From positions 16,926 to 80,925 of the forward strand of contig JACQHJ010000004.1 of assembly GCA_016199085.1 (NCBI GenBank): a DNA stretch of 64,000 nucleotides, written 5' to 3'. A program made the position numbers and the translations under genes. The notes under the pieces were generated by a model. The model searched no databases. It saw only the letters and a list, made by a program, of their open reading frames with translations, and was not told where the DNA came from. This document shows positions 2,491 to 33,608 of this stretch, piece by piece. The DNA comes from Candidatus Levyibacteriota bacterium (GTDB lineage: Bacteria > Patescibacteriota > Microgenomatia > Levybacterales > UBA12049). Position 1 is the stretch's first letter, and the number at the start of each line of letters is the position of its first letter.

Positions 2491-2908
2491 GTGTGGAGAT
2501 GTCCGAGAGTGACTCGGAGTCCAAGAAGGCATTTTTAAAAATGTCTACAAGCTTAGTTTGTTGTTTTTTGATCACTCTACTCTTTGAAAACAAACGTTCA
2601 TAAGTAAAGCCAAGGTTATAAATTCAATAAGGAACTAACCAGCCTCCTTATCAATTCCTAGGCTAAGTTTATGCCCAAAATGTTCCACCTAGGGAAAACA
2701 TTAAGGACATTTCTAAAAGTAAGCTTAAGCAGCTAGTGCTAAAGCTGGCTGTCTAGAAAAACCAAAAAGCTCAGCAAGAATTGCTGCCTTCTCGGCTAGT
2801 AATGCTTTTTTATTAGCATTTATATTTTGATTCTTGTTTTACGTCTACTAATCAAAGACGGCTTGCATTTTTTAAAGTGCTAAATCTTGTCGATGCAATT
2901 GCATCCCC
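2491..2908 (-). ncRNA. ssrA: tmRNA (transfer-messenger RNA)
   Basis: The minus-strand 5' end GGGGAUGCAAUUGCAUCGACAAGAUUUAGC resembles the tmRNA 5' tRNA-like domain (GGGGCUGAUUCUGGAUUCGAC..). An internal reading frame ends ..S R Q P A L A L A A-UAA (plus-strand 2723-2760), a typical tag peptide. The 3' end has a T-arm-like hairpin and an acceptor 3' strand CAUCUCC pairing with the 5' GGGGAUG. It lies immediately downstream of smpB. Confidence 0.7.
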
Positions 2909-18183: not shown

Positions 18184-18234
18184 TTGACACCTTAGTACTA
18201 GTGCCATATGATTTTTCTGGCACTATATCTAGCG
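18184..18234 (+). promoter_or_regulatory. sigma70-like promoter with two tandem NrdR-box-like palindromes
   Basis: The -35 is TTGACA (18184-89), followed by a 17-nt spacer and the -10 TATGAT (18207-12). Box A is acaccttagtactagtg (18187-18203). Box B is ggcactatatctagcg (18219-18234), resembling ACACTATATATAGTGT. The box centres are ~31 bp apart. Confidence 0.6.
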
Positions 18235-18276
18235 TTTTAATCTGCAACGTAATACAAGACTTAGCGCCAGTTAGAT

Positions 18277-18726
18277 ATGAAGTGTCCATATTGCGGAAGC
18301 AAAGATACAGAAGTAGTAGAGACTAGAGACAGCGAGGATTTAGAGACGATTAGAAGACGAAGAGAATGTTTAAGCTGCAAAAAGAGATTTACGACTTACG
18401 AAAGAATTGAAAACGTCAACTTAATAGTAATTAAAAAAGACGGAAGAAGAGAACAGTTCGACAGGGATAAATTAAAAAGAGGAATCTTACAGTCTTGCGA
18501 GAAAACAAAAGTATCTCATGAAGACATAGAGAAAATAGTAACGGAGATTGAAAGGGAACTAAGAACCGCCGATTCGGTTGAAATTGAAAGCAAGAAAATC
18601 GGCCAAATGGTATCGGCAAGATTAAAAGTGTTAGATAAGGTGGCGTATATTAGATTTTCTAGCGTGTTTAAAAGATTTGTAGACGTAGAAGATTTTGAAA
18701 AAGAAGTAAAGAGGTTAATAAAATAA
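18277..18726 (+). CDS. nrdR: transcriptional repressor NrdR (Zn-ribbon + ATP-cone)
   Basis: MKCPYCGS..CLSCKKRFTTYER, plus an ATP-cone. Confidence 0.9.
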   Translation: MKCPYCGSKDTEVVETRDSEDLETIRRRRECLSCKKRFTTYERIENVNLIVIKKDGRREQFDRDKLKRGILQSCEKTKVSHEDIEKIVTEIERELRTADSVEIESKKIGQMVSARLKVLDKVAYIRFSSVFKRFVDVEDFEKEVKRLIK

Positions 18727-18727
18727 T

Positions 18728-21700
18728 ATGAAATTAGACGGCATAAGACAAAAAGTATTTTTAGATAGATATTCATTGAAAGACATTAAAGGAGCCCCAA
18801 TTGAAAAAACTCCTGATGAAATGTGGAAGAGGGTTGCCAAGGGTATTGCCAGTGTCGAAAAGAAAAAAGATAGAAAGAAATGGGAGAAGAAATTCTTTGA
18901 AGTGATGGATGGCTTTAAGTTTTTACCCGGCGGAAGAATTTTAGCAGGTGCCGGAACAGGTTTTGACGTTACCTATTACAACTGCTTTGTTATCCCAAAT
19001 CCTCCTGATTCAAGAGGCGGGATAATGCAAAATTTAACACAGATGATTGAGATTATGGCACACGGTGGGGGCGTAGGACTTAACCTTTCCTCTTTAAGAC
19101 CAAGAGGATCAAGGGTTAAGAAAGTAAACGGATTTTCATCGGGTCCTCTAAATTGGGCAGAGCTTTATTCCCTTGCTACAAAAGATATTGTTCAACAGGG
19201 AGGTTGTTTTACAAAAGATGCAAAAATAATGACCCATAAGGGACTTATAAGCATTGAAGACATTGTAGGAAGTAATGGAAATTATTTTGCTCAAACACAT
19301 AAAGGTCTTAAAAAAATTACTGCAAAATTCGATAATGGTATAAAAGAAGTATTTGAGGTTGAAACATTAGGAGGATACAAAGTAAAGGTAACCAAAGACC
19401 ACAAATTTTTGACATTTACAAATAATGGCAATTTCTATCTTAAAAGACTGTCTGATTTACTAAAAGGAGATTCTCTTGTTTTACTTTCGTCAATATTCTT
19501 GGATGAAATCCCGGAGGTTTTATTAAAAGACAATATTGCAAGGCCCTCAAAGTTTTCCTATGGAAGAAGAACTGTTAATTTTCCAAAGACATTAACAAAA
19601 GATCTTGCTTTTGTTTTGGGAGTATATGCAGTTGATGGATCAAGAGTTAAAGACGAATATGCTTTTTCAAAAGGTCTTAGATTTGCAGTTGATGCAAAGA
19701 GAAAAAAAGACCTTAAACTACTTGTAAAAACAATATCCTCTCTTTTTGGTGTAACACCAATTTTAAGAAAAGGAGATGGGAATGTAATAGAGGTTAGTCT
19801 TTATTCCAGAAATCTGGTTGAGCTGCTAAGACTTAATAATCTCTTAAAAGAAAATTCAAATAAAGTTTTTGTTCCGGAACAGATTTTTTCATCTCCCAAA
19901 AGCGTTGTTGAAGCCTTTATCGCAGGAGTATTTTTTGGAGACGGTGGAAACAGGGGAGGAAAGGGAGGATTTAGAATAACTTCCGTAAATAAAAAATTTA
20001 CGGAAGACATCCAACTTCTTCTTTTAAATCTTGGTGTTGCCTCAAAACTTACAAAACAGGTAAGAGGCAGTTGGCAAGACTTATACACCTTAAATGTCAA
20101 TGGAGCTAAATTTATGAAGAGATTTTTGGAAATAGTTGCTCCATTTAATGAAAAGGCATTTGATAATGCAATTTCAACAAGGGATGCATTTTATAATTTT
20201 CCGATAAATGTTGTTAAAAGATTTGCCTATCTTTCCGGGATCCAAAGAACAATTGCTTACACAAATCCAACAACCTCATATAAAACCCTTGCTTTTATGG
20301 AAAATAATATGTCAAGAATTGATGATAAAGATATTGAAGATACCGAGATTTTAACATCAACGATTTCGGATAAAATTAAAAAAATTACAAAACTTGGGCT
20401 TGAACAGGTTTATGACCTTGAAGTAGGAGACGTTCATCTTCTCTCGGGTAATGGATTCTATACATCTAACAGTAGAAGGGGTGCTTTGATGTTAATGCTT
20501 AACGACTGGCATCCGGATATTGAAGAGTTTATAACTGTCAAACAGGATTTAAACAAAATAAACGGAGCAAACCTTTCGGTCTGTATTTCAGACGCATTCA
20601 TGGAAGCTATCAAAAAAGACGCTGATTGGGACTTGGTTTTTGCAGACCTGGATGATAAAAAATATGATAAAAAATGGACAGGAGACTTAGATGCTTGGAG
20701 GAAAGCCGGCGGAAAAGTTAAAGTAGTAAAAACAGTTAAAGCAAAATATCTCTGGGATCTAATCTGTACCGCTGCTTGGAAATCTGCAGAGCCTGGACTT
20801 CACTTCTTGGATAGGTCAAATAAGAGATCAAATACTTGGTATTTTGAGACTTTGACAGCCACGAATCCGTGCCTGACAGCAGATACATGGGTGCACACTA
20901 ATCAAGGACCTCGTCAAATAAGTGACTTAATTGGAAAACAATTTGTCGCGCGGGTAAATGGCGCAGACATTTTATCTGGGCCTCAGGGATTTTTTAAGAC
21001 TGCCACTAAGCCAGTTATTCATTTAAAAACAAAAGAAGGCTATAGTTTACGATTAACAAAAGATCATCTTATTCAATATGTTTCTACTATGAGTCGTTAC
21101 TCTACTAAAACAAAATGGCGAGAAGCCGGAAAACTTCAAAAAGGAGATTTAGTTGTCTTACAAAATCATAGTAGTAATAATACTTGGGAAGGAAATTACA
21201 GTCATAAGGAAGGTTATCTTATGGGAATGCTTATTGGGGATGGAACATTAAAACAAGATAAAGCAGTTTTGTCAGCATGGTTACCTCGCAGGACAACTTC
21301 TGTTGGATTAACACCAAGCGGTCAACAGGCAGTTATGGAGAGTGTTTCTTATGTGGCTATGTCTTTGCCTCATAGGGTAGATTTTAACGGATGGAGCAGG
21401 GTAAAAAATCGTGGAGAATACAGGCTTTCTCTTGCATCAATAAAGCAATTGGCAGAGGAGTTGGGAATGAGGCCGGGATATAAAACAATAACAAAACTCA
21501 TGGAAGAATCTTCAAGCGATTTTTATAAAGGATTACTTAAAGGACTTTTTGATACAGACGGTTCAGTACAAGGAAATCAAAGAAAGGGAGTAAGCATAAG
21601 ACTAGCCCAATCAGACCTGTTCTTATTAGAAGCAGTCCAAAGGATGTTGCTTAGGCTTGGTATTACCTCAAGAATATATAAAAATCGTCGCCAGGAGGGA

Positions 21701-23572
21701 ACTAAATCATTGCCTGATGGTAAAGGTGCAACAAAGGAATATCATATTAAAGCCCAACATGAATTAGTAATAAGTGGTAGTAATGTACTCCTTTTCTCAG
21801 AGCTTATTAATTTTGAAGACACTCAAAAATCATCTCGTTTAAGAAATCTCTTAGGTGCATATAAACGTAAATTAAACAGAGAGAGATTTGTAGCAACAGT
21901 AGAGAGTTTAGAGCTAGATGGAAAAGAGGATGTTTTCGATGTGCAAATTCCTAATCTTCATGCTTTTGATGCAAATGGATTTCATGCGCATAACTGCGGA
22001 GAGCAGCCATTATCACCTTGGGCTGTTTGTAACCTCGGAGCAATGAATCTGGCTGCATATGTAGATAAAAAAGGAGTTTTTGACTATGACAATTTTGGAA
22101 AAGACGTAAGGGTAGCAGTAAGGTTTTTGGATAACGTCATCGATGATACGCATTATTTTTATAAAGAAAATGAAAAAGTAGCAAAAGACATAAGACGTCA
22201 GGGTCTTGGAATATTAGGGCTTGCCGATGCTTTGATAAAAATGAAAATAAAATACGGCGCAGAGGATTCCCTTGTCGTTATTGAAAAAATATTTAAAACT
22301 CTTCGTGACAACGCCTATATTGCCTCATCTGATATCGCAGCCGAAAAAGGAAGTTTTCCAAGATACAACAGAGACAAATACCAAAAAGGCTGGCATATTA
22401 AAAGACTTCCTGAGGAAATTAAGAAAAAGATCTATCAACAGGGAATTAGAAATGCGGTACTTCTAACAATTGCTCCAACAGGAACAACCTCTTTAATTTC
22501 AGGAGTATCCTCAGGAGTTGAGCCTGTTTATGAGTTTGAGTTTATTAGACGCGATAGGCTTGGAGAACATATGATGTACCATCCTTTGTTTGATGAATGG
22601 AAAAAGGAAAATCCAGATAAGCAAAAACCAGACTATTTTGTTTCGGCAAATGACCTAACTCCTGAAGAGCACGTCAAGGTCCAGGCAGTTGCCCAAAATT
22701 ATATTGATTCATCAATTTCAAAAACAGTCAACGCTCCTAAGAAACATACGGTAGAAGACGTTAAAAAGCTTTATGAAATGGCTTTTGACATGGGTCTTAA
22801 AGGAATAACCTATATGAGAGATGGTTCAAGAGAGGGAGTATTATCTCGAAAAGAAGATAAGAAAGAAGAGGTAGCCCAGGTAACCTTGGAGTCAAAACTT
22901 CTTCCCGTTATACCAAGACCTGCGATGGTTGAGGGTGTAACGTATGGAACAGAGACTCCTGTTGGAAAAACATATATCACGATAAATCATGATGAGAAAA
23001 AACAGCCCTTTGAAGTCTTTATAACAGTTGGAAAATCCGGCTCAGACGTTGCCGCCATGGCAGATGCTCTTGGCAGAATGATCTCGTTGGCTCTAAGAAT
23101 CAACGGGCAAGTTGCTCCAAGAGAAAGAATGAGACAGGTTGTAGCCCAGATTGTCGGAATCGGAGGAGCAAGAAGCGTAGGTTTTGGAGAAAACAGGGTC
23201 AGATCTTTGCCAGACGCAGTTGCAAAAGTATTATCTAAACACTTTGAATTTCGGGTAAACGGAATTGTTGAAGACAAAAACCTAACCAATGGACACGCCA
23301 ATGTCCTTACAAATGTAGTAACCAATGGTAATGGTCATGCAGCTACAAAAGCTAATACGCATATTCCAGTTGATGTAGACAATAAAGAGGAAGTAAAAGA
23401 AGAAATTGTAAAATTGGAACAATTAACTCTCCAGACACCTGCCGGAAACTTATCCTCAACTTCCGGAACGTCAACAGGACTTTATGACATCTGCCCCGAA
23501 TGCGGAGGAGCAACCCTTGCCTACGAAGAAGGTTGCAAGAAGTGCTACTCTTGCGGATATTCAGAATGTTAG
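18728..23572 (+). CDS. nrdJ: class II (adenosylcobalamin-dependent) ribonucleotide reductase NrdJ, interrupted by two inteins
   Basis: Exteins total ~817 aa. The catalytic motif TATNP-[intein]-CGEQPLSPWAVCNLG is present. The C-terminal zinc ribbon is CPECGG..CKKCYSCGYSEC. Confidence 0.85.
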   Translation: MKLDGIRQKVFLDRYSLKDIKGAPIEKTPDEMWKRVAKGIASVEKKKDRKKWEKKFFEVMDGFKFLPGGRILAGAGTGFDVTYYNCFVIPNPPDSRGGIMQNLTQMIEIMAHGGGVGLNLSSLRPRGSRVKKVNGFSSGPLNWAELYSLATKDIVQQGGCFTKDAKIMTHKGLISIEDIVGSNGNYFAQTHKGLKKITAKFDNGIKEVFEVETLGGYKVKVTKDHKFLTFTNNGNFYLKRLSDLLKGDSLVLLSSIFLDEIPEVLLKDNIARPSKFSYGRRTVNFPKTLTKDLAFVLGVYAVDGSRVKDEYAFSKGLRFAVDAKRKKDLKLLVKTISSLFGVTPILRKGDGNVIEVSLYSRNLVELLRLNNLLKENSNKVFVPEQIFSSPKSVVEAFIAGVFFGDGGNRGGKGGFRITSVNKKFTEDIQLLLLNLGVASKLTKQVRGSWQDLYTLNVNGAKFMKRFLEIVAPFNEKAFDNAISTRDAFYNFPINVVKRFAYLSGIQRTIAYTNPTTSYKTLAFMENNMSRIDDKDIEDTEILTSTISDKIKKITKLGLEQVYDLEVGDVHLLSGNGFYTSNSRRGALMLMLNDWHPDIEEFITVKQDLNKINGANLSVCISDAFMEAIKKDADWDLVFADLDDKKYDKKWTGDLDAWRKAGGKVKVVKTVKAKYLWDLICTAAWKSAEPGLHFLDRSNKRSNTWYFETLTATNPCLTADTWVHTNQGPRQISDLIGKQFVARVNGADILSGPQGFFKTATKPVIHLKTKEGYSLRLTKDHLIQYVSTMSRYSTKTKWREAGKLQKGDLVVLQNHSSNNTWEGNYSHKEGYLMGMLIGDGTLKQDKAVLSAWLPRRTTSVGLTPSGQQAVMESVSYVAMSLPHRVDFNGWSRVKNRGEYRLSLASIKQLAEELGMRPGYKTITKLMEESSSDFYKGLLKGLFDTDGSVQGNQRKGVSIRLAQSDLFLLEAVQRMLLRLGITSRIYKNRRQEGTKSLPDGKGATKEYHIKAQHELVISGSNVLLFSELINFEDTQKSSRLRNLLGAYKRKLNRERFVATVESLELDGKEDVFDVQIPNLHAFDANGFHAHNCGEQPLSPWAVCNLGAMNLAAYVDKKGVFDYDNFGKDVRVAVRFLDNVIDDTHYFYKENEKVAKDIRRQGLGILGLADALIKMKIKYGAEDSLVVIEKIFKTLRDNAYIASSDIAAEKGSFPRYNRDKYQKGWHIKRLPEEIKKKIYQQGIRNAVLLTIAPTGTTSLISGVSSGVEPVYEFEFIRRDRLGEHMMYHPLFDEWKKENPDKQKPDYFVSANDLTPEEHVKVQAVAQNYIDSSISKTVNAPKKHTVEDVKKLYEMAFDMGLKGITYMRDGSREGVLSRKEDKKEEVAQVTLESKLLPVIPRPAMVEGVTYGTETPVGKTYITINHDEKKQPFEVFITVGKSGSDVAAMADALGRMISLALRINGQVAPRERMRQVVAQIVGIGGARSVGFGENRVRSLPDAVAKVLSKHFEFRVNGIVEDKNLTNGHANVLTNVVTNGNGHAATKANTHIPVDVDNKEEVKEEIVKLEQLTLQTPAGNLSSTSGTSTGLYDICPECGGATLAYEEGCKKCYSCGYSEC
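19205..20470 (+). mobile_element. intein 1 in NrdJ (422 aa) with LAGLIDADG homing-endonuclease domain
   Basis: It starts with Cys after ..QQGG and ends ..GFYTSN followed by Ser. The LAGLIDADG-like blocks are LGVYAVDGS and IAGVFFGDGG. The penultimate residue is Ser rather than the usual His. Confidence 0.7.
20870..21994 (+). mobile_element. intein 2 in NrdJ (375 aa) with LAGLIDADG homing-endonuclease domain, inserted at the catalytic cysteine
   Basis: It begins CLTADTWV directly after TATNP and ends ..FHAHN followed by CGEQ. The LAGLIDADG blocks are LMGMLIGDGTL and LLKGLFDTDGSV. GC is locally elevated. Confidence 0.8.
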
Positions 23573-23575
23573 TTA

Positions 23576-24022
23576 ATGATTAAAGCAGTTATTTTTGACT
23601 GGGGAAGGACGATCTACGATAAGGAAAATGAGAATATATTTGCCCAAACACCTGCCGTTTTGGAATATTTCTCAAAAAAGTACAAAGTCGTAGTCGTCTC
23701 TTTGGCAACAGATGGTGATATTGAGACAAGGTTTGCAAAAATTGAAAAATACGGTCTTTGGAAATATCTGGCTTTTGCTCTTTTTCATAAAAACGATAAA
23801 GACGCACTTTTCAGAAATGCTTTTGGCAATTTAAGGCTAAATCCGGAGGAAATCTTAGTAGTCGACGACTACATGAAAAGACTTGAGTTTCCAATTAAAG
23901 CAGGGTGTAAAGCAATTTGGATAAAAAAGGGTAAATTTGCCGATTTTTTGCCAAACGAAGAGACTGGAAAGCCAAATTATATAATAAATAACCTGTCAGA
24001 AATATTAGATTTAGGATTTTAA
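23576..24022 (+). CDS. HAD-superfamily hydrolase-like protein (degenerate motif I)
   Basis: VIFDWGRT (motif I with the second Asp replaced) and ILVVDDY (motif IV). Confidence 0.5.
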   Translation: MIKAVIFDWGRTIYDKENENIFAQTPAVLEYFSKKYKVVVVSLATDGDIETRFAKIEKYGLWKYLAFALFHKNDKDALFRNAFGNLRLNPEEILVVDDYMKRLEFPIKAGCKAIWIKKGKFADFLPNEETGKPNYIINNLSEILDLGF

Positions 24023-24024
24023 AT

Positions 24025-24570
24025 ATGTCAATTTATACAAAATTTGGAGACAAAGGAAAGACCTCATTATATGCCGGAAAAACCGTTTCTAAAGGTAGTC
24101 TACGTGTCAACGCCTATGGAACGGTTGATGAGCTAAACAGTTTTTTGGGTATTGTTCTAACTTTAGTAAAAGATAAAAAATTAAAAGACAAACTCATCAA
24201 TATTCAAAAAGACCTATTTGAAGTTGGGGCTTGTCTTGCAAATCCTACGGGAAACAAAGATAGACTGTTGTCCAAGTATTTAACCCACAGGGTTTTGGAA
24301 TTTGAAGCTGAAATTGACAGTCTGACTAAAAAGCTTCCAAAACTGGAACACTTTATTTTGCCAGGCGGTGGAAAGCCGGGTTCAAGCCTGCATTTTGCAA
24401 GAACTTTGGTAAGAAGGGCGGAAAGAAGAGTGGTGGAGTTATCCGAAAAGGAAAAGATAAATACGGACATAATTATTTTCCTAAATAGACTTTCAGACCT
24501 TTTATTTATGTATGCAAGGGATATAAATTACAAAGAAAAACAAAAAGAATTACTATGGAAAAGTAGATAG
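24025..24570 (+). CDS. PduO-type ATP:cob(I)alamin adenosyltransferase
   Basis: MSIYTKFGDKGKTSLYAGKTVSKGSLRVNAYGTVDELNSFLG matches the PduO-type N-terminal signature (IYT..GD.G.T.L..G.RV.K......AYGT.DELNS.IG). Confidence 0.8.
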   Translation: MSIYTKFGDKGKTSLYAGKTVSKGSLRVNAYGTVDELNSFLGIVLTLVKDKKLKDKLINIQKDLFEVGACLANPTGNKDRLLSKYLTHRVLEFEAEIDSLTKKLPKLEHFILPGGGKPGSSLHFARTLVRRAERRVVELSEKEKINTDIIIFLNRLSDLLFMYARDINYKEKQKELLWKSR

Positions 24571-24574
24571 TAAG

Positions 24575-24699
24575 TTTTCCCGGGTGAAGTAGGCGAGATT
24601 CCTACGCTGTGCCGCAACTGTAAAGTCAGAACCCCGTTCCCTCTAAAAGAGGGATAAATAAATCTTCCGAGCCAGAAGTATTGTTTTTATAATATACAG
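24575..24699 (+). promoter_or_regulatory. candidate cobalamin (B12) riboswitch aptamer
   Basis: GGUGAAGUAGGCGAGAUUCCUACGCUGUGCCGCAACUGUAAAGUCAGAACCCCG resembles the conserved cobalamin-riboswitch core (GGUGA.AAUCC..CGC.G.CCCCGCAACUGUAA...AGYCAGGA.ACC). It is followed by the partial B12-box-like GAGCCAGAAG and a terminator that sequesters the downstream RBS. Confidence 0.5.
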
Positions 24700-24726
24700 C
24701 TCCTCGGAAAAAAGAGGAGTTTTTTT
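24700..24726 (+). terminator. intrinsic terminator / RBS-sequestering hairpin (riboswitch expression platform)
   Basis: CTCCTC-ggaaaaaa-GAGGAG followed by TTTTTTT, then the ATG at 24727. The 3' arm AAGAGGAG also forms the Shine-Dalgarno sequence. Confidence 0.6.
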
Positions 24727-25938
24727 ATGAGTAAAGAGAGAATTCAAAGACCAAATGTAATAGAATTTCCAAGAGAGCAATTTGCAATTATCGGCAATAA
24801 TGCGTTAAGACTGGATAGTGTGTCATTAGGATCTCCCAAAATGGCAGAAGTTGTAGACATACGAAGTCATCAAGCAAAAAAACAGTCGGCAGAGGCTTCT
24901 GCTTTTAAGCACGAATTTTACAAAGGCGCAAGCAAAAGACAAATCGAAGATGACGTAGCTTCATATTTGGCAGAATATAGATTTGAAGTTCCTGAATTTA
25001 ACTATACCCTAAATATTGTCGATGACGACTTAATCGATCCTGCAAGCGGAGAATCTATGATAGCAAAGGCAAAAAAGGCTATTGAAGAAAGAGAGAAAGA
25101 AGGCTTAAGTGCCTCAAGAGAAAAAGCCGAATTAAGAGGTTTGGTGAGCTTAAAGATTCAAATTAAGCAAAATCCCAATGGAACGGTTGTCTGGTTTAGT
25201 CCTCCGGGCAAAGAGGAAGAGGGGTATGGGAGATATGGATTCGGTTACGTGGGAAAAAGAATAGGAGACGTTTTGGAAATGACTGCTATAAGAGTTGAAG
25301 ATCCAAATATTGCAGATTTTAATGCTGCAGCAACTGCCCTTTGGGCAGCAGCAGATCTTGAAAAGGCAGAAGATTTTTTAGAATCACCACGCGTTGTAAA
25401 CATTGATCATGAAAAAGTTAAAGAGTTTATTCATGGAAATTTTGAAGTAAAAAACTTCCGAGCAAAACACGTTTTTGATAGGGTAAGAAGAAATCTAAGG
25501 AGTGTAATAAGAGAGTATGCCAGCGTTGCCCAGGGGGAAGACGATGAAAGAAAGCATCTTGCGCTTCATGTAGTGGAGAACTTATCAATTGAACTAAGAC
25601 AAATGTATGAAAAAGAGTTCGAGAGAGGAAATGTTGCCTTTTTGTTAGATCAAGATATTCCAACGCTTGAAACAGCCATGGGATACAAAAAATATATTGC
25701 TCCACCTCCTAAAATCAGGGGAAGCTGTGGGTCAACCGGCAAGGTCGAAAGCAATGATATTTTCAGAAGCATTAAATCTGAAGTAAAAAAGAATATCTCA
25801 AAACAAAGAGATTTTGAATTTAACGAACCTGGTCCATGCAGGCTTTGCGGAAGAGACGTTCCTTGCGGACCTTGCTTTATCTGCGAAAGATGTAACGACT
25901 CGATAGATGCATCCGAGCAGGCAACGCAAGCGGCCTAA
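24727..25938 (+). CDS. uncharacterised 403-aa protein with C-terminal Cys-rich cluster, putatively riboswitch-controlled
   Basis: Clean ATG start. No recognisable catalytic motif and no TM segment. The C-terminal CRLCGRDVPCGPCFICERC suggests metal binding. Confidence 0.6.
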   Translation: MSKERIQRPNVIEFPREQFAIIGNNALRLDSVSLGSPKMAEVVDIRSHQAKKQSAEASAFKHEFYKGASKRQIEDDVASYLAEYRFEVPEFNYTLNIVDDDLIDPASGESMIAKAKKAIEEREKEGLSASREKAELRGLVSLKIQIKQNPNGTVVWFSPPGKEEEGYGRYGFGYVGKRIGDVLEMTAIRVEDPNIADFNAAATALWAAADLEKAEDFLESPRVVNIDHEKVKEFIHGNFEVKNFRAKHVFDRVRRNLRSVIREYASVAQGEDDERKHLALHVVENLSIELRQMYEKEFERGNVAFLLDQDIPTLETAMGYKKYIAPPPKIRGSCGSTGKVESNDIFRSIKSEVKKNISKQRDFEFNEPGPCRLCGRDVPCGPCFICERCNDSIDASEQATQAA

Positions 25939-33115: not shown

Positions 33116-33535
33116 AGACAGGATTATACAAAACAGTTTCCTTATAAACAATTGTGGTTAAGGGTTAGGCTTTTGGGATTAAGCCCTATCCTAAATTGAG
33201 GCTAAAAATTTGTGTTGCGGGGCTAGGAGTTGCGCCTAGCCTATGAGATTATGCATCTGTTTCTTAGGTTACCCTAAGTGTCGGACTATATCTTCATCCC
33301 AAAACTTGGGAGCTCAGCGTGTAGTCTCTACGGGAATTCAACTATTATTGAATCTTCCCTCGGTATTGTCCTAAAAATTTAGGAGTTCACCGATATAGCT
33401 GAGTACTATTTTGGTATTACTATCAAAATGGCCCATTATTTTAAGCCTCATGTGCACTGTACACTACCCCGCGCATAGAATACATTATAGCACGAATTTG
33501 CCTTAATTTGAAGCAAATGATAAAATAGTTTTTGC

Positions 33536-33608
33536 GCCAGGGTAGCTCAGTGGTGGTAGCGCCGGATTCATATCCCGGTGGTCGCGAGTTCGATCCTCGC
33601 CCCTGGTA
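33536..33608 (+). tRNA. tRNA with CAU anticodon (Met, initiator or lysidine-Ile cannot be distinguished)
   Basis: Acceptor GCCAGGG/CCCTGGT, anticodon loop tTCATAt, T-arm GCGAG-TTCGATC-CTCGC, discriminator A. Confidence 0.7.

What the first reader, a model, noticed from the sequence alone, without database searches (positions are those of the whole stretch)
18728..23572. Class II RNR (NrdJ) carrying two LAGLIDADG inteins, one splitting the catalytic NPCGE motif
The 1614-aa ORF reduces to a ~817-aa NrdJ after removal of two inserts. Insert 1 (19205-20470) starts with Cys and ends ..TSN followed by Ser, with an unusual penultimate Ser instead of His. Insert 2 (20870-21994) sits exactly between TATNP and CGEQPL. 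The catalytic cysteine is therefore the intein +1 residue, a textbook intein site. Both inserts carry LAGLIDADG homing-endonuclease blocks. Insert 2 has locally elevated GC, suggesting recent acquisition. An essential enzyme with two self-splicing elements is notable for this genome's biology.
Basis: partly seen in the sequence, partly recalled or inferred. Interest (0 to 1): 0.55.

Follow-up and report, generated by a model that had tools for sequence, protein, structure and literature searches.

The report
Two homing-endonuclease inteins in NrdJ
The B12-dependent ribonucleotide reductase gene of this Levybacteria (CPR) genome carries two self-splicing, mobile protein inserts at well-conserved sites, which is a correct but ordinary finding because this enzyme is one of the commonest intein hosts.

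Summary
Removing aa 160-581 and aa 715-1089 leaves an 817-aa NrdJ. It aligns without gaps across both junctions to T. maritima NrdJ and to 90%-identical intein-free orthologues in syntenic loci. Both inserts have an intein splicing domain plus a two-motif LAGLIDADG endonuclease (Pfam, NCBIfam). Their predicted folds match PI-PfuI, PI-SceI and the TliVMA intein. All family-conserved catalytic residues are intact.

Insert 2 lies directly before the thiyl-radical cysteine (Tm C322). Published work calls this the most frequent intein site in RNRs. Insert 1 lies in QGG|SRRGA. Its penultimate Ser is invariant in every allele sampled, across at least five phyla, so it is a family trait and not decay.

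The claim that insert 2 has elevated GC is wrong. Its GC equals the window mean, and insert 1 is the GC-poor outlier. Of the 119 closest NrdJ relatives, 113 have no intein, 6 have only intein 2, and none has intein 1. Intein 1 most resembles a Roizmanbacteria allele. The GenBank CDS is truncated at M588, so intein 1 is unannotated.

Verdict: a new member of a known kind, of low interest.

The parts
18184..18235 (+). Promoter-like TTGACA-17-TATGAT (18184-18212) followed by an NrdR-box-like palindrome (18220-18235), upstream of nrdR. This is a tentative control region for the nrdR-nrdJ pair.
   Evidence: The promoter is the best consensus match in the region, 11 of 12 positions. The box match has 3 mismatches and is not above chance for the window, so it remains tentative.
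18277..18726 (+). nrdR (149 aa), the repressor gene. Its stop codon lies 1 nt before the nrdJ start, so the two genes are probably co-transcribed.
   Evidence: Exact match to MBI3984919.1, NrdR of Candidatus Levybacteria. The syntenic loci have Zn_ribbon_NrdR plus ATP-cone genes in the same position.
18728..23572 (+). nrdJ precursor ORF: 1614 aa, 180.6 kDa, three extein segments and two inteins.
18728..19204 (+). Extein segment 1 (aa 1-159). It contains the all-alpha N domain and C86, which aligns to T. maritima C134. It ends in ...QQGG.
   Evidence: Pfam Ribonuc_red_lgN and the alignment to 1xje.
19205..20470 (+). Intein 1 (422 aa, 47.3 kDa). Features: Cys1; block B T63-x-x-H66; LAGLIDADG motifs LAFVLGVYAVDGS (nt 19604-19642) and VEAFIAGVFFGDGG (nt 19907-19948); block F/G VYDLEVGDVHLLSGNGFYTSN; terminal Asn with penultimate Ser; +1 Ser.
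   Evidence: Pfam and NCBIfam matches. The family-invariant residues are retained. AlphaFold model pLDDT 92.4, matching TliVMA intein and PI-PfuI. The insert is absent from the syntenic orthologues L001-L003.
20471..20869 (+). Extein segment 2 (aa 582-714), SRRGALM...TATNP.
   Evidence: Gap-free alignment to 1xje and to TIGR02504 positions 154-281.
20870..21994 (+). Intein 2 (375 aa, 42.2 kDa). Features: Cys1; block B T63-x-x-H66; LAGLIDADG motifs YLMGMLIGDGT (nt 21215-21247) and LLKGLFDTDGS (nt 21533-21565); block F/G VFDVQIPNLHAFDANGFHAHN; canonical His-Asn; +1 Cys, which is the thiyl-radical cysteine.
   Evidence: Pfam and NCBIfam matches. Conserved residues are intact, and dN/dS against L003 is 0.09 in both the splicing and the endonuclease parts. 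AlphaFold model pLDDT 92.0, matching TliVMA intein, PI-PfuI and PI-SceI.
21995..23569 (+). Extein segment 3 (aa 1090-1614). It starts CGEQPL... and contains the rest of the barrel, the TSCPD domain (nt 22958-23242) and the C-terminal Cys-rich tail CPECGG...CKKCYSCGYSEC (nt 23492-23569).
   Evidence: Pfam Ribonuc_red_lgC and TSCPD, the 1xje alignment, and direct reading of the sequence.

Best explanation
The gene encodes a dimeric-type, adenosylcobalamin-dependent ribonucleotide reductase (NrdJ) of a Candidatus Levybacteria (CPR/Patescibacteria) genome. Two independent class-1 inteins interrupt it in frame, and each carries a two-motif LAGLIDADG homing endonuclease.

The 180.6-kDa precursor is translated whole.

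Each intein then removes itself by the standard four-step splicing reaction:
1. N-S acyl shift at Cys1.
2. Trans-esterification to the +1 Ser (intein 1) or +1 Cys (intein 2).
3. Cyclisation of the terminal Asn.
4. Acyl shift to a peptide bond.

The products are a 91.2-kDa NrdJ and two free endonucleases of 47.3 and 42.2 kDa. Until both inteins are out the enzyme cannot work. Intein 1 splits the QGG|SRRGA loop, and intein 2 separates Asn-Pro from the radical Cys-Gly-Glu.

The released endonucleases are expected to cut intein-less nrdJ alleles at the fused junction sequence. The intein DNA is then copied in by repair (homing).

Shown: the anatomy, the extein continuity, the conserved catalytic residues, purifying selection, the folds, and presence/absence polymorphism among close relatives.

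Inferred: actual splicing and endonuclease activity.
For: The enzyme:
- The spliced 817-aa sequence passes TIGR02504 NrdJ_Z (581.9 bits against a cut-off of 399.95).
- It aligns gap-free across both junctions to T. maritima NrdJ 1xje. G159|S160 fall at about Tm 205|206. N291-P292|C293-G-E295 match Tm N320-P-C322-G-E324. C86 matches C134 and C304 matches C333.

The inserts are not native domains:
- Intein-free orthologues of 800-820 aa reach 90% identity.
- In the syntenic loci L001 and L002 (PGK-GAPDH-DUF5667-nrdR-nrdJ-adenosyltransferase) the DNA shows the empty sites. The window carries exact 1266-nt and 1125-nt in-frame insertions. The spliced gene is 81% identical at nucleotide level.

Both inserts are inteins with endonucleases:
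- Each matches Intein_splicing, LAGLIDADG_3 and intein_Nterm above cut-off.
- The models (pLDDT 92.4 and 92.0) match endonuclease-bearing inteins at Foldseek E 1e-14 to 1e-24.

Selection and mobility:
- Intein 2 against its closest allele (L003) gives dN/dS 0.088, with the endonuclease part at 0.091. The extein gives 0.045.
- Of the 119 best extein relatives, 113 have no intein, 6 have intein 2 only, and none has intein 1.
- Intein 1 identity does not follow host identity. It is 65.6% to a Roizmanbacteria allele whose extein is 62% identical. It is 53% to alleles in hosts whose exteins are 71-77% identical.
Against: - No experiment shows splicing or DNA cleavage.
- Intein 1 lacks the penultimate His that usually assists Asn cyclisation. 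All sampled alleles lack it as well, and inteins without it are known to splice (Chen, Benner and Perler 2000, cited in PMC8772380).
- The nearest intein 1 relative is only 66% identical, so no recent donor is identified.
- The contig is from a metagenome-assembled genome. Linkage of intein 1 to this particular extein background rests on the assembly.
- The lower dS of intein 2 relative to the exteins (0.81 against 1.43) could reflect saturation or codon bias and not later transfer.
Confidence: 0.88

Rival explanations
1. Both elements are bona fide splicing inteins, but their endonucleases no longer home. They persist by vertical inheritance only, because precise deletion from an essential active-site region is rare. 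This is the late phase of the homing cycle.
For: Intein 2 identity follows extein identity within its small clade: 87.5% with a 91% extein, and 74-77% with 83-85% exteins. Mini-intein alleles of 141 aa that have lost the endonuclease exist at site 1 in relatives P0103 and P0105, so endonuclease loss does occur in this family.
Against: Both LAGLIDADG Asp-Gly pairs are intact in both inteins. The endonuclease part of intein 2 has dN/dS 0.091, as constrained as the splicing part. Most close relatives carry empty target sites, which is the condition under which an active endonuclease is maintained. The distribution of intein 1 does not follow the host.
Confidence: 0.3
2. Intein 1 is linked to this nrdJ by a metagenome assembly chimera. 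Reads from a co-occurring population whose nrdJ carries the intein were joined through the conserved extein flanks. The real genome would then have only intein 2.
For: Intein 1 is a compositional outlier (GC 0.323, 2nd percentile). None of the 119 closest NrdJ relatives has it. The source is a MAG contig.
Against: The insertion is exactly in frame with perfect junction residues. The flanking extein DNA is continuous and has uniform divergence from L001, 0.79-0.87 per 150-nt block with no step at the junction. Both inteins have lower GC3 than the exteins, so low GC is a shared intein property. Double-intein alleles at the same two sites exist in other assemblies and in cultured Ktedonobacteria.
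Confidence: 0.05
3. One or both inteins have lost splicing, so the gene is a decaying pseudogene.
For: The non-canonical penultimate Ser in intein 1. The deposited annotation calls only a 1027-aa C-terminal fragment.
Against: The 4845-nt frame is open throughout. Every family-invariant splicing residue is present. The exteins are under strong purifying selection (dN/dS 0.045). The penultimate Ser is invariant in 36 of 36 aligned alleles and in all 16 genome loci inspected, drawn from about five phyla. No other RNR gene is visible in the 64-kb window beside nrdR.
Confidence: 0.03
4. The inteins are retained because they act as post-translational switches. For example, redox-sensitive splicing through Cys1 and Cys+1 at the radical site could gate dNTP synthesis.
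For: Intein 2 places two cysteines (Cys1 and the +1 thiyl Cys) next to each other. Conditional splicing and a benefit of an RNR intein have been reported for other hosts (PMC4513877; PMC8772380 for Aquifex R2).
Against: Nothing in the sequence requires this. About 95% of the closest relatives function without any intein, which argues against a needed regulatory role.
Confidence: 0.05

Closest known systems
PI-PfuI and PI-PfuII (Pfu RIR1-1 and RIR1-2), the two LAGLIDADG inteins in the Pyrococcus furiosus class II RNR. NCBIfam PRK08332 models this intein-containing archaeal NrdJ.
   Same: The host enzyme is the same, and each has two endonuclease-bearing inteins in one gene. Intein 2 occupies the same site as the second Pyrococcus-type intein. 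Intein 2 aligns to PRK08332 positions 929-1241, and the following extein continues at position 1240. Both window inteins match the PI-PfuI crystal structure 1dq3.
   Different: Sequence identity to PI-PfuI is only 13-18%. The Pyrococcus-type model has no intein at site 1: extein 1 ends at model position 743 and extein 2 starts at 745. Its first intein lies further upstream.
[quoted passage not shown] Dassa et al. [quoted passage not shown] From memory, the Mth RIR1 mini-intein (Pro at -1, Cys at +1) is an allele at this site.
   Same: Intein 2 sits at exactly this point (NP|CGE) with Pro at -1 and Cys at +1. 104 of the 120 intein-biased hits carry an intein here.
   Different: The window allele belongs to one of several lineages at the site, the one ending ...AHN. 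Relatives carry others, ending ..VSN..SLD or ..SRG, or starting with Ser. The split NrdJ-1 intein of PMC2677866 lies one residue further downstream.
[quoted passage not shown]
   Same: A bacterial nrdJ that carries several inteins at once.
   Different: I could not retrieve that sequence, so site correspondence is untested. No Trichodesmium genome was among the 80 best of 87 confirmed site-1 family hits.
The QGG|CF...YTSN|SRRGA intein allele family in public genomes. Cultured examples are Tengunoibacter tsumagoiensis, Ktedonosporobacter rubrisoli, Dictyobacter kobayashii and Paenibacillus arenilitoris.
   Same: Same insertion point, same invariant Cys-Phe start and Tyr-Thr-Ser-Asn end, and the same +1 Ser.
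   Different: These are only 32-40% identical to the window's intein 1. The CPR (Microgenomates) alleles are 47-66% identical. I found no paper that describes this family or maps it to an InBase RIR1 site letter.

Membership tests
Intein (class 1 protein-splicing element, HINT fold) | An in-frame insertion that is absent from orthologues, with host sequence continuous across the junction. | tested here: met
   Gap-free alignment of the spliced sequence to 1xje. Intein-free orthologues at 90% identity. Empty sites in syntenic L001 and L002 at DNA level.
Intein (class 1 protein-splicing element, HINT fold) | A nucleophile (Cys, Ser or Thr) at intein position 1 and at extein position +1. | tested here: met
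   Intein 1 has Cys1 and Ser+1. Intein 2 has Cys1 and Cys+1. Both are invariant across alleles.
Intein (class 1 protein-splicing element, HINT fold) | Block B Thr-x-x-His and block F Asp/His. | tested here: met
   T63 and H66 are invariant in both families. D404 and H411 are invariant in intein 1, and D357 in intein 2.
Intein (class 1 protein-splicing element, HINT fold) | Block G: C-terminal Asn preceded by His. | tested here: inconclusive
   Intein 2 has the canonical His-Asn. Intein 1 has the terminal Asn but Ser in place of His. This Ser is invariant in all 36 aligned alleles and in 16 of 16 genome loci inspected. The penultimate His is common but not obligatory (Chen et al. 2000, cited in PMC8772380).
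Intein (class 1 protein-splicing element, HINT fold) | Matches to curated intein models, and a HINT fold. | tested here: met
   PF14890 scores 54.9 and 41.0 bits against a cut-off of 35.8. TIGR01445 scores 39.3 and 32.7 bits against a cut-off of 24.5. The models match the TliVMA, PI-PfuI and PI-SceI inteins.
Intein (class 1 protein-splicing element, HINT fold) | Autocatalytic excision with ligation of the exteins. | not testable with these tools
   Requires expression followed by SDS-PAGE or mass spectrometry.
LAGLIDADG homing endonuclease (two-motif, intein-embedded) | Two LAGLIDADG motifs, each ending in an acidic residue followed by Gly. | tested here: met
   Intein 1 has ...YAVDGS and ...FFGDGG. 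Intein 2 has ...LIGDGT and ...FDTDGS. The Asp-Gly pairs are invariant or at least 90% conserved.
LAGLIDADG homing endonuclease (two-motif, intein-embedded) | A curated domain model match and the LAGLIDADG core fold. | tested here: met
   PF14528 scores 54.0 and 85.3 bits against a cut-off of 22.5. The central domains match I-DmoI with target-normalised TM-scores of 0.58-0.73.
LAGLIDADG homing endonuclease (two-motif, intein-embedded) | Site-specific cleavage of the intein-less allele, and gene conversion. | not testable with these tools
   Only indirect evidence is available. Empty sites dominate among close relatives. Intein 1 similarity does not follow host similarity. The endonuclease part of intein 2 has dN/dS 0.091.
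Class II ribonucleotide reductase NrdJ (dimeric, AdoCbl-dependent) | The curated equivalog model is passed by the mature sequence. | tested here: met
   TIGR02504 NrdJ_Z scores 581.9 bits against a cut-off of 399.95 on the spliced 817-aa sequence.
Class II ribonucleotide reductase NrdJ (dimeric, AdoCbl-dependent) | Active-site Cys pair, Asn, radical Cys and Glu. | tested here: met
   C86, C304, N291, C293 and E295 align to T. maritima C134, C333, N320, C322 and E324. The residue roles are from established knowledge of the T. maritima enzyme.
Class II ribonucleotide reductase NrdJ (dimeric, AdoCbl-dependent) | Cobalamin dependence. | not testable with these tools
   The context is consistent with it. 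A Cob_adeno_trans gene lies directly downstream in the syntenic loci and at 24025-24570 in the window. An AdoCbl-II riboswitch hit lies at 24565-24644.

The most novel reading that the evidence does not exclude
The QGG|CF...YTSN|SRRGA inteins may form an undescribed, phylum-spanning allelic family. Its members have an invariant Thr-Ser-Asn C-terminus, so they would complete Asn cyclisation by a conserved His-independent route. In small CPR genomes this intein, or intein 2 with its adjacent Cys1 and radical Cys+1, might be kept as a conditional switch on dNTP supply and not as a purely selfish element.
Probability: 0.07. Interest if true: 0.5.

Novelty: new member of a known kind. Interest (0 to 1): 0.15.

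Why it matters
The value is mainly practical. The deposited annotation of this gene starts at Met588 and misses the N-terminal extein and the whole of intein 1. A Roizmanbacteria relative is truncated in a similar way. Intein-bearing nrdJ genes in CPR genomes are therefore being under-called, which can make an essential enzyme look partial in metabolic reconstructions.

The locus also offers a clean natural series for studying intein gain and loss in Patescibacteria. The three states are no intein, intein 2 only, and both inteins, all in syntenic loci. The intein-less junction sequences are ready-made substrates for testing two new LAGLIDADG endonucleases.

The invariant Thr-Ser-Asn end of the site-1 family is a modest lead for splicing chemistry. 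None of this changes what is known about inteins or RNRs.

Tried and rejected
- The homologue search with intein 1 alone gave only 7 hits because of the word index. I took the site-1 alleles from the full-length search and from a genome scan with an intein-only alignment.
- Looking up the deposited contig through P0210 or NrdR found nothing on record. I could not see how the N-terminal 587 codons are annotated in GenBank.
- The NrdR-box consensus search gave 8 matches against 3.96 expected, and 8 of 100 shuffles did as well. The box at 18220-18235 is therefore only suggestive.
- I tried to assign site 1 to an InBase RIR1 site letter through four literature searches. The papers show that InBase used site letters up to at least RIR1-l (PMC1635734), but none maps this site.
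- I tested whether site 1 equals the first Pyrococcus intein site. It does not.
- GC as evidence of recent acquisition of intein 2: rejected.
- The antisense ORFs inside the gene (19801-20100 and 22987-23325, minus strand) have no support and were set aside.
Full report
**Observation**

The window has one uninterrupted ORF at 18728-23572 (+) of 1614 aa.
- Insert 1: nt 19205-20470, aa 160-581, QQGG|CFTKD...GFYTSN|SRRGA.
- Insert 2: nt 20870-21994, aa 715-1089, TATNP|CLTAD...GFHAHN|CGEQPL.

Removing both leaves 817 aa.

The one stated observation that fails is the elevated GC of insert 2. Its GC is 0.372, equal to the window mean (52nd percentile of equal-length windows). That is lower than the flanking exteins (0.39-0.40). 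Its GC3 is 0.24 against 0.31-0.37 in the exteins. Insert 1 is the outlier, and it is GC-poor: 0.323, 2nd percentile, GC3 0.21.

**The host protein**

The full ORF matches Ribonuc_red_lgN, Ribonuc_red_lgC and TSCPD. The spliced sequence passes the NCBIfam equivalog TIGR02504 NrdJ_Z with 581.9 bits against a cut-off of 399.95.

Against T. maritima NrdJ (PDB 1xje), the spliced sequence aligns without a gap across both junctions:
- ...ivqqgg|srrgalm... lies over ...vvkqgsrrrgalm..., at about Tm 205|206.
- ...tatnp|cgeqpls... lies over ...nstnpcgeigls....

The +1 Cys of insert 2 is therefore the counterpart of Tm C322. C86 and C304 are the counterparts of C134 and C333. The residue roles come from established knowledge of that enzyme. 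From memory, the QGGxRRGA segment is specificity loop 2; I did not test this.

The C-terminus carries a Cys-rich tail, CPECGG...CKKCYSCGYSEC.

**Origin and context**

The neighbouring NrdR and GAPDH proteins match GenBank entries from a Candidatus Levybacteria MAG exactly, on a contig of 87,862 bp. nrdR ends one base before nrdJ starts.

The deposited protein for this gene (P0210, 1027 aa) equals residues 588-1614 of the ORF. The public annotation therefore omits the first extein and all of intein 1.

**The inserts are not native domains**

A search with the spliced extein alone returned mostly 800-820-aa NrdJ proteins without any insert, at up to 90% identity. Of the 119 best non-self hits:
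- 113 have no insert.
- 6 have an insert at site 2 only.
- None has an insert at site 1.

Two of these relatives were recovered with their neighbourhoods. L001 and L002 (intein-free) and L003 (intein 2 only) share the order PGK-GAPDH-DUF5667-nrdR-nrdJ-adenosyltransferase with the window.

At DNA level the window differs from L001 by two exact in-frame insertions of 1266 and 1125 nt. The remaining gene is 81% identical, with no step in divergence at the junctions.

**The inserts are inteins with homing endonucleases**

- Each insert matches Pfam Intein_splicing and LAGLIDADG_3 and NCBIfam intein_Nterm above the curated cut-offs.
- Against 46 site-1 alleles and 24 related site-2 alleles, the window copies retain essentially all strongly conserved residues. 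These include Cys1, block B Thr63 and His66, both LAGLIDADG Asp-Gly pairs, block F, and the terminal Asn.
- AlphaFold models built on these alignments are confident (mean pLDDT 92.4 and 92.0). Their best PDB matches are endonuclease-bearing inteins: TliVMA 7qss/7qsu, PI-PfuI 1dq3 and PI-SceI, at Foldseek E 1e-14 to 1e-24. The central domains match I-DmoI.
- Between the window and L003, intein 2 has dN/dS 0.088. The splicing parts give 0.077 and the endonuclease part 0.091. The extein core gives 0.045. Both functions of intein 2 are therefore under purifying selection.

**The penultimate Ser of intein 1**

Every site-1 allele seen ends Tyr-(Thr/Ser)-Ser-Asn followed by Ser:
- 47 of 47 alleles.
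- Y419, T420, S421 and N422 are invariant among 36 sequences.
- 16 of 16 genome loci inspected.

A pattern scan of one genome per species found 87 confirmed members of this family. They occur in Microgenomates, many Chloroflexota (including the cultured Tengunoibacter, Dictyobacter and Ktedonosporobacter), Paenibacillus arenilitoris, Sulfobacillus, Udaeobacter and an Acidobacteriaceae MAG. Every inspected case sits at QGG|...|SRRGA.

The Ser is a fixed family trait. Splicing without the penultimate His is documented (Chen, Benner and Perler 2000, cited in PMC8772380).

**Site 2**

Dassa et al. [quoted passage not shown]

The NCBIfam model of the intein-containing Pyrococcus-type NrdJ (PRK08332) has an intein at the same place. 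Intein 2 maps to model positions 929-1241, and the next extein starts at 1240. That model has none at site 1, since positions 743 and 745 are contiguous.

Among the relatives, site 2 carries several distinct intein lineages.

**History**

Intein 2 similarity roughly follows host similarity within a small Levybacteria clade: 87.5% with a 91% extein, and 74-77% with 83-85% exteins. Equally close relatives lack it.

Intein 1 is absent from all close relatives. Its best match, at 65.6%, is in a protein whose cluster includes a Candidatus Roizmanbacteria entry and whose extein is only 62% identical. Hosts with 71-77% identical exteins carry alleles that are only about 53% identical.

If either intein is a later, horizontally acquired arrival, it is intein 1. 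Mini-intein alleles of 141 aa at site 1 in relatives show that endonuclease loss also occurs.

**Mechanism**

Shown:
- The anatomy and the extein continuity.
- The conserved catalytic residues and the folds.
- Purifying selection.
- The patchy distribution among relatives.

Inferred: the 180.6-kDa precursor splices twice. This yields a 91.2-kDa NrdJ plus free endonucleases of 47.3 and 42.2 kDa. The endonucleases then target intein-less alleles.

**Rivals**

- Endonucleases inactive, persistence vertical only: plausible for one or both inteins (0.3).
- Assembly chimera for intein 1 (0.05).
- Pseudogene (0.03).
- Regulatory switch (0.05).

**Comparison and novelty**

RNR is the second most frequent bacterial intein host, with 211 inteins in the survey of PMC4760082. 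Multi-intein nrdJ genes are known, for example the four in Trichodesmium (cited in PMC1635734). LAGLIDADG elements are abundant in CPR genomes (PMC11270868).

This locus is a new member of a known kind. I found no paper that describes the site-1 family or maps it to an InBase site letter, but it is widespread in public genomes.

Interest is low (0.15).

Noticed in passing
window 20489-23572 against 18728-23572: The GenBank protein for this gene (P0210, 'ribonucleoside reductase', 1027 aa) starts at Met588 of the real ORF, so the first extein and intein 1 are unannotated. A Candidatus Roizmanbacteria entry (MBI5123403.1, 1176 aa) is a shorter member of a cluster whose representative is 1600 aa, which may be the same kind of truncation.
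   Followed up: partly
window 24565-24721 (+), upstream of ORF 24727-25938: There is an AdoCbl-II riboswitch hit (RF01689, 37.6 bits, gathering score 36.5). A terminator-like hairpin follows at 24698-24721, then a 403-aa ORF. Its 402-406-aa counterparts, at the same position in the syntenic loci L001-L003, have no Pfam hit on record. The hit lies directly after the Cob_adeno_trans gene, downstream of B12-dependent nrdJ.
   Followed up: no
window 33262-33453 (-), beside tRNA 33536-33608 (+): A group I catalytic intron hit (RF00028, 72.7 bits), which would be another self-splicing element in the same window. Its host gene was not examined.
   Followed up: no
window 2491-2908 (-): A tmRNA gene (RF00023, 101.2 bits).
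   Followed up: no
window 18184-18235 (+): The best sigma-70-like promoter of the region (TTGACA-17-TATGAT, 11 of 12) is followed by an NrdR-box-like palindrome, GCACTATATCTAGCGT, upstream of nrdR. The box match is not above chance.
   Followed up: partly
window 23576-24022 (+): A 148-aa ORF lies between nrdJ and the adenosyltransferase gene. It has no counterpart at this position in the syntenic loci L001-L003, so it may be a small local insertion.
   Followed up: no
relatives P0031, P0045, P0047, P0052-P0060, P0118 (not in the window): Other NrdJ alleles carry a third intein just before the Cys equivalent to T. maritima C134 (...YN|C...SN|CFVIP). One carries an intein at APTG|...|TT. Some proteins hold three inteins and reach about 2000 aa.
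   Followed up: partly
relatives at site 2 (e.g. P0015, P0010, P0073): Site 2 alleles in relatives include inteins that appear to end in Asp (..SLD|C) or Gly (..SRG|C), and a lineage that starts with Ser (SLRAGT...TGN|C). I did not verify the boundaries of the Gly-ending group.
   Followed up: no
L022 (Dictyobacter kobayashii), just after the site-1 intein: The C-extein reads SRREH* immediately after the intein. This suggests a frameshift, a pseudogene or a further intervening element.
   Followed up: no
L011 and L076: Two contigs titled 'uncultured Gammaproteobacteria' carry Microgenomates-like nrdJ with the site-1 intein.
   Followed up: no
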